This document shows positions 1-3,000 of a stretch of 64,000 nt of DNA, piece by piece. The position numbers are program-made. Positions within the stretch are counted from its first letter, which is position 1; every line of letters begins with the position of its first letter. Source of the DNA: Escherichia coli. Lineage in GTDB: Bacteria; Pseudomonadota; Gammaproteobacteria; Enterobacterales; Enterobacteriaceae. The stretch lies in assembly GCF_029227855.1 (NCBI RefSeq), contig NZ_CP074356.1. One strand, 5' to 3'.

Positions 1-3000
1 TCCTTGATGGCGACTTCAGCCGCAAAAATACAGGCGGTTGCACTATTGAGTTGCTCTGCCGTTAAACGCCCTTCAATACCGTTAGCGCCTTGTTTTTCAA
101 CGTAGACATTCACGCCGAGTTTGCGTCCGGCTTTTTCCAGATATTCCGCAGCCATATAGGTGTGAGCAATACCCGCCGGGCAGGCCGTTACGCAGACGAT
201 AGTTGGCGCGTTGGAAAAAGAAGCTGAGGGTTGCGTGCCTCCCTTGTCATCCAGCGCCGAAAGCAATTCATCAGGCGTCGTCGCCGACTGTATACGCGCC
301 CGTATCTCATCATCCGCCAGGCGCGTGGTCAGCGCTGTCAGCAGTTGCATGTGCGTAGTACCCGCTTCATTGGGGGGAATCGCCAGCAACACCACTAAAT
401 CAACCGCTTCCGGGCCATCCACGCCTTCCCACTGAAGCGGCTCACTCAGTGTCGCAACGGCAAACGCTGCTTCTTTTACCGCAGCAGTTTTACCATGCGG
501 CACAGCCAACCCTTCACCTAAGGCGGTCGGGCCAAGGCTTTCACGGCGATACACTTCTTCCAGAAATTGCTCAGTACTGGAAATTTTCCCCAGAGCAGCA
601 AGACGTTGAGTCAACGCGTGGATGGCCTCTTCACGGCTGGTAAAGCGCGCATTCAGACACAACGCATCGCGGTGGGTCAGAGTCGTCAGGTTCATCATGA
701 TCCTCACTTGATCGTTTTTATAGTCGCGCCAGTGTGCCCGATAAAACAATACTATTATGTGATCAATTTCACTTGATTGAAATTATTTGTATTGTATTTG
801 TATTATTTACAGGATGAATTTATCGTGCATAATGGCTAAATTCGTATTAATGAGATGCTAAATAATGGGACGGAAACCCTTATATCGACAGATTGCCGAT
901 CGCATTCGTGAGCAAATTGCGCGTGGCGAGCTAAAACCTGGCGATGCGTTACCTACCGAATCGGCATTGCAAACAAAGTTTGGCGTCAGCCGGGTTACGG
1001 TGCGTCAGGCTTTGCGCCAGCTAGTCGAGCAACAGATCCTCGAAAGCATTCAGGGCAGCGGGACTTACGTCAAAGAAGAGCGGGTCAATTACGATATTTT
1101 TCAGTTAACCAGTTTTGATGAAAAACTGTCGGACCGTCACGTCGATACACACAGTGAAGTTCTGATATTTGAAGTGATTCCGGCTGACGATTTTCTTCAG
1201 CAACAGCTACAAATCATCGCGCAGGATCGTGTGTGGCATGTGAAGCGCGTGCGCTATCGCAAGCAAAAGCCAATGGCGCTGGAAGAAACCTGGATGCCGC
1301 TTGCGTTGTTCCCGGATCTCACCTGGCAGGTTATGGAAAATTCGAAATATCACTTTATTGAAGAAGTGAAGAAAATGGTTATCGATCGTAGCGAACAGGA
1401 AATCATTCCTCTGATGCCAACCGAAGAGATGAGCCGTCTGCTTAATATCAGCCAGACTAAGCCGATTCTTGAAAAAGTATCGCGTGGATATTTAGTTGAT
1501 GGCCGGGTGTTTGAATATAGCCGCAACGCTTTTAATACTGATGACTATAAATTTACCCTGATAGCGCAGCGAAAATCATCGCGATAAGCATAAAAAAGGC
1601 CATCATACGATGGCCAACCATGTCGAAACCGACAACCCTTCGCCATTCCTGTAGAGGGAAGCGGCGAGGGCTATTTCTTATTACAGATATTTATTTCAGA
1701 ACAGTTTTCAGTGCTTCACCGATATCCGCCAGGCTGCGAACGGTTTTCACGCCTGCGGCTTCCAGAGCAGCGAATTTCTCATCCGCAGTCCCTTTCCCAC
1801 CGGCAATGATGGCACCCGCGTGGCCCATACGTTTGCCTTTCGGCGCAGTTACACCAGCGATGTAACCTACAACTGGCTTGGTAACGTGCTCTTTGATGTA
1901 CGCAGCCGCTTCTTCTTCAGCACTACCGCCGATCTCACCGATCATCACGATCGCTTCGGTCTGCGGATCTTTTTCGAACATTTCGAGGATGTCGATAAAG
2001 TTAGAGCCAGGGATCGGGTCGCCGCCGATACCAACACAGGTCGACTGACCGAAACCGTAATCCGTGGTCTGTTTAACTGCTTCATAGGTCAGTGTACCGG
2101 AACGGGAAACGATACCCACTTTACCCGGTTTGTGAATGTGACCAGGCTGGATACCGATTTTGCATTCACCCGGAGTGATAACGCCTGGGCAGTTCGGGCC
2201 GATCATGCGAACGCCCGCTTCATCCAGTTTCACCTTCACGGTCAGCATATCCAGCGTCGGGATGCCTTCAGTGATGGTGATAATCAGTTTGATGCCTGCA
2301 TCAATAGCTTCCAGAATGGAGTCTTTGCAGAACGGTGCTGGTACGTAGATAACAGAAGCGGTAGCGCCAGTAGCAGCAACAGCTTCACGCACGGTGTTGA
2401 ACACCGGCAGGCCGAGGTGGGTGGTGCCGCCTTTACCTGGGGTTACGCCGCCAACCATTTTAGTGCCGTATGCAATGGCTTGTTCAGAGTGGAAAGTCCC
2501 CTGGCTACCGGTAAAGCCCTGGCAGATAACCTTGGTGTTTTTATCAATTAAAATGGACATTATTTCCCCTCCACTGCGGCAACAACCTGCTGAGCTGCAT
2601 CCGTCAGACCTTTTGCTGCAATAATATTCAGGCCGCTGTCAGCCAGTTTCTTCGCGCCGAGTTCGGCGTTGTTACCTTCCAGACGTACCACGACCGGTAC
2701 GTTAACACCCACTTCCGCTACCGCGCCGATGATACCGTCAGCGATCAGGTCGCAACGAACGATACCGCCGAAGATGTTAACCAGAACGGCTTTCACTTTG
2801 TCGTCAGATAGGATGATTTTGAACGCTTCGGTTACACGTTCTTTGGTTGCGCCGCCGCCAACGTCCAGGAAGTTAGCTGGTTCGCCGCCGTGCAGTTTAA
2901 CGATGTCCATCGTACCCATCGCCAGACCTGCGCCGTTAACCATACAACCGATGTTACCGTCCAGCGCAACGTAGTTCAGTTCCCACTGTGCAGCCTGTGC

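What the first reader, a model, noticed from the sequence alone, without database searches (positions are those of the whole stretch)
1591..1690. Candidate SdhX sRNA in the sucD 3'UTR
The about 100 nt between the sucD stop and the terminator hairpin (ggccatcatacgatggcc plus U-tract on the minus strand) correspond to where the Hfq-dependent sRNA SdhX is processed from the sdhCDAB-sucABCD transcript. I identify it by position and terminator only; I cannot verify the seed sequence from memory with confidence.
Basis: partly seen in the sequence, partly recalled or inferred. Interest (0 to 1): 0.3.

Follow-up and report, generated by a model that had tools for sequence, protein, structure and literature searches.

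The report
Known SdhX small RNA after sucD

Summary
Confirmed and already known. The window is E. coli chromosome with an intact sdhCDAB-sucABCD operon on the minus strand.

- **Identity:** window 1590..1690 (-) matches 99 of 101 bases of the curated K-12 MG1655 gene sdhX (b4764, "small regulatory RNA SdhX"), which starts right after the sucD stop.
- **Functional bases intact:** the published seed UUCGACAUGGU (1627..1617), G62 (fdoG pairing), the C34 region (katG pairing), and a 7-bp terminator hairpin followed by U6.
- **Differences from K-12:** C56U turns a G-C stem-closing pair into G-U. G100A lies after the U tract. Both look neutral.
- **Predicted pairing:** the seed pairs with ackA -2..+8, SdhX 62-71 with fdoG -22..-13, and SdhX 29-42 with katG -20..-7. 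These are the registers that published compensatory mutations validated.
- **Rfam:** Rfam 15 gives no hit because it has no SdhX model.
- **Conservation:** the element is present in 5416 of 5426 complete E. coli genomes. A pattern scan found the same layout in 71 loci, nearly all from named Enterobacteriaceae genera, with covarying inner terminator pairs.

Expression, RNase E processing and Hfq binding in this strain are inferred from the literature, not shown here.

The parts
1691..2560 (-). sucD (succinyl-CoA synthetase alpha), last gene of sdhCDAB-sucABCD. Its mRNA 3' end is the SdhX precursor.
   Evidence: ORF of 289 aa. E. coli RefSeq records annotate sucD under the match. Operon order and gene lengths match MG1655.
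1590..1690 (-). SdhX long form (101 nt, span of the K-12 b4764 annotation). SdhX position p corresponds to window coordinate 1691-p.
   Evidence: 99/101 identical to MG1655 ncRNA sdhX. Folds with z = -4.1.
1635..1671 (-). Escherichia-type upstream hairpin (SdhX 20-56). In this window the closing pair is G20-U56, where K-12 has G20-C56.
   Evidence: MFE structure. The C56U substitution is at window 1635. This region differs in sequence between genera, but a palindromic hairpin-like stretch is visible in most (sequences read; not folded).
1649..1662 (-). katG-pairing stretch (SdhX 29-42, GCUUCCCUCUACAG), E. coli-specific. It includes C34.
   Evidence: A 14-bp duplex with katG -20..-7 over the Shine-Dalgarno sequence. 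The duplex of the 21-55 segment scores -33.5 kcal/mol, and 0 of 1000 target shuffles score as well. C34G/compensatory mutation data are in PMC6393394.
1617..1627 (-). Conserved seed UUCGACAUGGU (SdhX 64-74). The extended pairing stretch is 62-73 (window 1629..1618) and includes G62.
   Evidence: Exact match to the published seed and unique in the window. Pairs with ackA -2..+8 and, via 62-71, with fdoG -22..-13, with G62 opposite C-13. Invariant in the five E. coli alleles compared.
1598..1615 (-). Rho-independent terminator hairpin GGCCAUC-GUAU-GAUGGCC (SdhX 76-93).
   Evidence: Terminator scan and fold. In 62 enterobacterial sequences the outer 4 pairs are invariant, and each of the inner 3 pairs has 22 sequences changed on both sides while still pairing.
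1592..1597 (-). U6 tract (SdhX 94-99): transcription stop and presumed Hfq-binding 3' tail.
   Evidence: At least 6 T in all 62 aligned sequences. The Hfq role is taken from the literature.
1591..1628 (-). Inferred short form equivalent to the 38-nt SdhX2 (SdhX 63-100). The predicted RNase E cut is at GG|UUU.
   Evidence: Inference only. The literature reports a ~38-nt 3' form and a UUU processing site. Counting 38 nt back from the 3' end lands at U63, the first U of the UUU at 63-65.

Best explanation
Window 1590..1690 (-) is the sdhX gene of E. coli. It encodes SdhX (formerly RybD), an Hfq-dependent small RNA that has no promoter of its own.

How it is made (from the literature): the sdhCDAB-sucABCD mRNA ends at the intrinsic terminator at 1615..1592. 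RNase E releases a ~101-nt 3' fragment and, by a second cut, a ~38-nt one.

How it acts: the single-stranded seed just upstream of the terminator pairs with the start-codon region of ackA mRNA and blocks its translation. This ties acetate kinase synthesis to TCA-cycle operon expression. In E. coli the same RNA also represses fdoG, through the seed extended to G62, and katG, through the Escherichia-specific upstream region around C34.

Shown here: sequence identity, position, structure, intact pairing nucleotides, and conservation.

Inferred from the literature: transcription, RNase E processing, Hfq binding, and repression in this particular strain.
For: - **Identity:** 99/101 to the curated K-12 ncRNA sdhX b4764, in the same position right after the sucD stop.
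- **Operon:** intact upstream, with sdhC, sdhD, sdhA, sdhB, sucA, sucB, sucC, sucD in order and gene lengths as in MG1655.
- **Seed:** UUCGACAUGGU is exact.
- **Terminator:** a single terminator-like site on the correct strand, and a fold z-score of -4.1.
- **No own promoter:** no sigma-70-like promoter in 1300..2100, which fits processing rather than independent transcription.
- **Pairing registers match published compensatory-mutation results:** G67 opposite ackA C5, G62 opposite fdoG C-13, and C34 inside a 14-bp duplex with the katG Shine-Dalgarno sequence.
- **Within E. coli:** present in 5416/5426 complete genomes.
- **Across genera:** 71 loci, nearly all from named Enterobacteriaceae genera, show sucD stop, variable stretch (mostly hairpin-like), UUCGACAUGG, then UUGGCC stem and terminator. 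The UUGGCC was not imposed by the search pattern and is present in 70 of the 71. The terminator shows compensatory changes.
- **Literature:** PMC6393394 and the review PMC9438474.
Against: Nothing contradicts it.

Caveats:
- There is no expression, processing or Hfq data for this strain.
- Rfam gives no support either way because it has no model.
- Duplex energies alone are only modestly better than shuffled targets for ackA (35/1000) and fdoG (94/1000). The case for regulation therefore rests on published experiments, not on my energies.
- The cross-genus set was ascertained with the seed in the search pattern, so it cannot show how often the seed is absent.
- In the MFE fold, an Escherichia-specific 5-bp mini-hairpin (SdhX 57-61 with 66-70) partly occludes the seed.
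Confidence: 0.97

Rival explanations
1. It is only the passive 3'UTR and intrinsic terminator of the suc operon in this strain. The two substitutions relative to K-12 would have inactivated any sRNA function.
For: Two differences from K-12. Any operon needs a terminator, and the weak Rfam match covers only the generic terminator part.
Against: Neither substitution touches the seed, the terminator stem, the U tract, G62 or C34. C56U converts G20-C56 to a G-U wobble, and G100A lies after U6. The seed plus UUGGCC is invariant across the Enterobacteriaceae loci sampled, far more conserved than a plain terminator needs to be.
Confidence: 0.02
2. It is an independently transcribed sRNA gene with its own promoter inside the end of sucD (MicL-type), not a processing product.
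For: Miyakoshi et al. note that SdhX and SucD levels do not always correlate, and they considered this option.
Against: No sigma-70-like promoter in 1300..2100 on either strand. The literature reports no transcription start site or conserved promoter element, and both SdhX species are lost in an RNase E temperature-sensitive mutant.
Confidence: 0.02
3. The hairpin mainly serves the convergent gene mngR (865..1587, +) as a shared or bidirectional terminator, and the SdhX-like region is incidental.
For: The mngR stop (1585-1587) lies 10 nt from the hairpin, and the hairpin is nearly palindromic, so it forms in both transcripts.
Against: On the plus strand the hairpin is followed by AACCATGTCG, not a U tract, and the scan reports no plus-strand terminator. 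O157:H7 genomes keep the whole SdhX element although the sequence diverges right after the U tract and no mngR is annotated there. This role is also not exclusive of the SdhX function.
Confidence: 0.05
4. The region encodes a small protein: the ORFs of 33 aa (1646..1545, -) or 22 aa (1621..1553, -).
For: Both ORFs exist mechanically.
Against: Both run through the terminator hairpin and U tract and into sequence antisense to mngR, so they would lie beyond the transcript end. The 33-aa ORF has AGGA only 1 nt before its AUG, and no properly spaced ribosome-binding site is seen.
Confidence: 0.005

Closest known systems
SdhX (RybD), E. coli K-12 MG1655 b4764, NC_000913.3 765050..765150
   Same: Same locus, strand relation and length, with 99/101 identical bases. 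The seed, G62, C34 region, terminator and U tract are identical.
   Different: C56U (G-C to G-U at the base of the upstream hairpin) and G100A (after the U tract). The evenly spaced rows suggest this is a minority allele: roughly one sixth of complete genomes are within one mismatch of it, and K-12-like alleles make up over half.
Salmonella SdhX1 (87 nt) / SdhX2 (38 nt) (Miyakoshi et al. 2019, PMC6393394)
   Same: Same position after sucD, the same seed UUCGACAUGGU, the same ackA start-codon pairing, and the same terminator + U tract architecture.
   Different: The Salmonella 3'UTR is about 25 nt shorter (75 nt in the two S. enterica subspecies loci). It lacks the katG-pairing stretch and has U where E. 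coli has G62, so it does not regulate fdoG or katG. It regulates fumB and yfbV instead.
Other RNase E-processed, Hfq-dependent 3'UTR sRNAs (CpxQ, SroC, NarS, MalH; review PMC9438474)
   Same: Same biogenesis logic: the parental mRNA's terminator doubles as the Hfq-binding module, and the seed sits just upstream.
   Different: Unrelated sequences and targets. Outside its short seed, SdhX is unusually variable between genera.
Rfam RF01388 isrD (best sub-threshold Rfam match)
   Same: Only a GGCCA-stem terminator followed by U6 (17.3 bits, E = 0.75).
   Different: Far below the gathering score of 37, and 25 model positions are skipped. This is not a relationship, just a generic terminator resemblance.

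Membership tests
SdhX (RybD) sRNA | Lies directly downstream of the sucD stop codon, on the same strand, at the 3' end of an intact sdhCDAB-sucABCD operon | tested here: met
   sucD is at 1691..2560 (-) and the element at 1590..1690 (-). The operon genes upstream are in K-12 order and size.
SdhX (RybD) sRNA | Sequence homology to the curated E. coli K-12 sdhX gene | tested here: met
   99/101 identical to b4764.
SdhX (RybD) sRNA | Conserved seed UUCGACAUGGU (core CGACAU) immediately 5' of the terminator | tested here: met
   Exact at 1627..1617 (-) and unique in the window. The same seed and spacing occur in 71 loci, nearly all from named Enterobacteriaceae genera.
SdhX (RybD) sRNA | Rho-independent terminator hairpin plus 3' U tract (the Hfq-binding module of this sRNA class) | tested here: met
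   7-bp stem, 4-nt loop, U6. The stem is supported by compensatory changes in 3 of its pairs across 62 sequences.
SdhX (RybD) sRNA | Seed complementarity to the ackA start codon and second codon (the validated G-C pair with ackA C5) | tested here: met
   SdhX 64-73 pairs with ackA -2..+8 (9 Watson-Crick pairs + 1 G-U), with G67 opposite C5. Validation is in PMC6393394. The ackA sequence came from MG1655, not from this strain.
SdhX (RybD) sRNA | E. coli-specific determinants: G62 (fdoG) and the C34 region (katG) | tested here: met
   G62 and C34 are present. There are 10 contiguous pairs with fdoG -22..-13 (G62 opposite C-13) and 14 pairs with katG -20..-7.
SdhX (RybD) sRNA | Generated by RNase E processing of the operon mRNA; binds Hfq; accumulates as ~101-nt and ~38-nt species | not testable with these tools
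   Literature only. The absence of a promoter-like site and the GG|UUU context at the predicted cut fit this but do not prove it.
SdhX (RybD) sRNA | Match to a curated covariance model (Rfam) | not testable with these tools
   No hit at gathering threshold or at E<=10. Since the reference-identical sequence finds nothing, Rfam 15 has no SdhX family, and the negative result carries no weight.

The most novel reading that the evidence does not exclude
The convergent mngR transcript has no intrinsic terminator of its own on the plus strand. It could therefore read through the shared hairpin and produce RNA perfectly antisense to SdhX. That would couple the mannosylglycerate regulon to SdhX levels, for example through RNase III cleavage or sponging.

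A smaller variant concerns natural sdhX alleles within E. coli: C56U here, and U36C/U46G in roughly a fifth of genomes. These might rewire the accessory targets katG and fdoG between lineages, much as was shown between E. coli and Salmonella.
Probability: 0.07. Interest if true: 0.4.

Novelty: already known. Interest (0 to 1): 0.07.

Why it matters
For genome annotation this is a useful negative lesson rather than a discovery. SdhX is a characterised regulator linking the TCA-cycle operon to acetate metabolism. Yet Rfam holds no model for it, and none of the non-K-12 RefSeq E. coli records I looked at annotates it. Automated pipelines therefore leave it blank, and a "no Rfam hit" test would wrongly reject it.

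The 62-sequence alignment of the seed and terminator made here (A3) could seed such a model. Biologically, nothing in this window departs from what is published.

Tried and rejected
- **Rfam scans:** at gathering threshold on the whole window and at E<=10 on 1400..1900. No SdhX family was found, only a terminator-like sub-threshold isrD match and a spurious mir-155 match.
- **Full-length duplex prediction:** SdhX against 90-nt target regions gave long, loop-ridden duplexes no better than shuffled sRNAs (162/500, 88/500, 68/500). I discarded these as uninformative and replaced them with region-restricted duplexes.
- **De Mets et al. 2019 (PNAS, PMC6338826):** the library does not hold it, so its content is cited only through PMC6393394 and the review PMC9438474.
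- **Small-ORF reading** of the region: rejected.
- **Independent-promoter reading:** rejected (plus the literature).
- **katG covariation check:** I asked whether the katG leader covaries with the U36C sdhX allele. The katG -50..+30 region is at least 99% identical in 4573 of 5425 genomes, so general compensation looks unlikely. I did not pair sdhX and katG alleles genome by genome.
- **Not run:** a protein-anchored locus search and a new covariance model. Neither was needed for a known element.

Full report
**Observation**

The window is E. coli chromosome. A 301-nt query around the finding matches 5425 of 5426 complete E. coli genomes, three of them at 100% among the hits listed. On the minus strand sucD occupies 1691..2560 (289 aa). 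It is preceded by sucC, sucB, sucA, sdhB, sdhA, sdhD and sdhC in the K-12 order and sizes, and gltA is divergent beyond them. Downstream, the convergent GntR-family gene mngR ends at 1587 on the plus strand.

Between the two genes the minus strand reads AUAUCUGUAAUAAGAAAUAGCCCUCGCCGCUUCCCUCUACAGGAAUGGCGAAGGGUUGUCGGUUUCGACAUGGUUGGCCAUCGUAUGAUGGCCUUUUUUAU. The terminator scan finds one site in 1300..2100, on the minus strand: GGCCATC-GTAT-GATGGCC followed by T6 at 1615..1598.

Two wording slips are worth recording. The hairpin string it quoted is the plus-strand reading. And the ~100 nt run from the stop codon to the end of the U tract, not to the hairpin, which starts 75 nt after the stop.

**Identification**

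The curated MG1655 record annotates "ncRNA sdhX, b4764, small regulatory RNA SdhX" at 765050..765150, beginning at the base after the sucD stop. Window 1590..1690 (-) aligns to it without gaps at 99 of 101 positions. SdhX position p corresponds to window coordinate 1691-p.

There are two differences:
- C56U at window 1635. In the predicted fold this turns the G20-C56 pair closing the upstream hairpin into a G-U wobble.
- G100A at window 1591, just after the U6 tract.

The seed named by Miyakoshi et al. [quoted passage not shown] It occurs nowhere else in the window. G62 and C34, the nucleotides whose mutation abolished fdoG and katG regulation in E. coli, are both present.

**The Rfam test**

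cmscan finds no family here at gathering threshold or at E<=10. The latter gives only a 17-bit terminator-like match to isrD and a spurious microRNA match. A sequence 99% identical to the reference gene could not miss a family built on it. The conclusion is that Rfam 15 has no SdhX model, not that this is not SdhX. Consistently, the other RefSeq E. coli records listed show no annotated feature under the match.

**Mechanism**

According to the literature, SdhX (formerly RybD) is an Hfq-dependent sRNA. RNase E releases it from the 3' end of the ~10-kb sdhCDAB-sucABCD mRNA as a long form (~101 nt in E. coli) and a 38-nt form. It has no promoter of its own. It represses ackA by pairing across the start codon. 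In E. coli, but not Salmonella, it also represses fdoG and katG.

What I could test is whether this copy can do the same.
- No sigma-70-like promoter is found in 1300..2100.
- The RNA folds well below shuffled controls: -39.1 against -24.7 +/- 3.6 kcal/mol.
- Region-restricted duplex prediction against MG1655 target leaders recovers the published registers:
  - SdhX 64-73 with ackA -2..+8 (CCAUGUCGAG), with G67 opposite C5.
  - SdhX 62-71 with fdoG -22..-13 (AUGUCGAAAC), with G62 opposite C-13.
  - SdhX 29-42 with katG -20..-7 (CUGUAGAGGGGAGC, the Shine-Dalgarno region), with C34 inside the duplex.
- The katG duplex beats all 1000 target shuffles. The short seed duplexes are only moderately unusual by energy (35/1000 for ackA and 94/1000 for fdoG). 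The weight of evidence for regulation therefore lies in the published compensatory mutations, not in my energies.
- Counting 38 nt back from the 3' end places the predicted second RNase E cut at GG|UUU (before U63, window 1628). This matches the UUU processing site mutated in the paper. It is an inference.

**Variation and conservation**

The 101-nt element is found in 5416 of 5426 complete E. coli genomes. Aligning five alleles shows substitutions only at SdhX positions 36, 46, 49, 56, 83 (terminator loop) and 100. Positions 57-82 and the terminator stem are invariant. C49U (in an O157:H7 strain) and C56U (this window) both change G-C pairs to G-U pairs.

For reach beyond Escherichia I scanned the species-representative genome collection. 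The pattern tied the seed to the SucD C-terminal motif GEALK at 50-80 nt distance. After filtering for a stop codon 4-5 codons after GEALK, 72 loci remained, and one of them (a Henriciella MAG) was a false positive. The other 71 are almost all from named Enterobacteriaceae genera: Escherichia, Citrobacter, Salmonella, Klebsiella, Raoultella, Enterobacter, Kluyvera, Kosakonia, Pluralibacter, Phytobacter, Mangrovibacter, Cedecea and others. A few come from MAGs with other labels.

All 71 share one layout: sucD stop, then a genus-specific stretch that in most contains a hairpin-like palindrome, then (U)UUCGACAUGG, then UUGGCC opening a terminator stem, then at least 6 U. The UUGGCC was not part of the search pattern, yet it is present in 70 of the 71.

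On the 62-sequence alignment, the four outer stem pairs never vary. Each of the three inner pairs has 22 sequences changed on both sides while still pairing. Overall 92.7% of cells are paired, against at most 59% for slid registers, and 0 of 500 shuffles reach the observed covariation score.

Because the seed was required by the pattern, this set shows the architecture is widespread. It says nothing about how often the seed is lost.

**Rivals**

- *A purely passive terminator.* Unlikely, given seed-level conservation across genera and intact functional nucleotides.
- *An internal promoter.* Not supported by the scan or the literature.
- *A shared terminator for mngR.* Possible as an additional role. 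However, the plus strand lacks a U tract after the hairpin, and O157:H7 keeps SdhX without mngR next to it.
- *Small ORFs.* The two that overlap the region run through the terminator and are not credible.

**Verdict**

The element is the already characterised sRNA SdhX, a common natural allele with two apparently neutral substitutions. There is no novelty in the window. The only practical point is that the element is invisible to Rfam-based annotation.

Noticed in passing
L006 (E. coli FDAARGOS_944, NZ_CP065613.1) 1501..2380; equivalent to window ~1618: One E. coli genome has an IS1 element inserted inside the SdhX seed, with a 9-bp target duplication TCGACATGG. The insertion separates the sucD 3'UTR from the seed-plus-terminator copy, a natural disruption of sdhX.
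   Followed up: partly
L005 (E. coli Eco889) 151..251; equivalent to window 1655, 1645, 1608: A 96%-identity sdhX allele carries U36C, U46G and G83U. The evenly spaced rows suggest it is in roughly a fifth of complete E. coli genomes. U36 sits in the middle of the 14-bp katG duplex, so this allele would create a C.A mismatch. The katG leader is nearly invariant across E. coli, which hints at lineage-specific weakening of katG control.
   Followed up: partly
window 1590 and below; L007, L008 252..401: In O157:H7 genomes the sequence diverges immediately after the SdhX U tract, and no mngR is annotated there. This probably explains why only 3882 of 5426 genomes cover at least 80% of the 301-nt query. 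The sRNA's 3' end coincides with a strain-variable junction.
   Followed up: partly
window 1621..1634 (-), SdhX 57-70: UGUCG-GUUU-CGACA forms a 5-bp mini-hairpin in the MFE fold that sequesters half of the seed. Among the sequences aligned, the 5' arm (GUCGG context) occurs only in the Escherichia-type sequences; other genera differ there.
   Followed up: no
window 1588..1700 (+): mngR (865..1587, +) has no intrinsic terminator-like site on its own strand. Its transcripts may run antisense across sdhX.
   Followed up: no
window 48672..48795 (-): Full-length Rfam hit to STnc490, an Hfq-binding RNA (RF01405): 146 bits, E = 7.5e-30.
   Followed up: no
window 61549..62249 (+): Cluster of seven tRNA genes found by Rfam. 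It includes two identical pairs and a pair of identical 74-nt tRNAs at 61549 and 61941.
   Followed up: no
L054 (JAIJJM010000981.1): A 1014-bp contig labelled 'MAG: Collinsella sp.' carries a sucD 3' end plus an SdhX region identical to the Raoultella/Klebsiella-type loci. This is probably a binning contaminant in that MAG.
   Followed up: no
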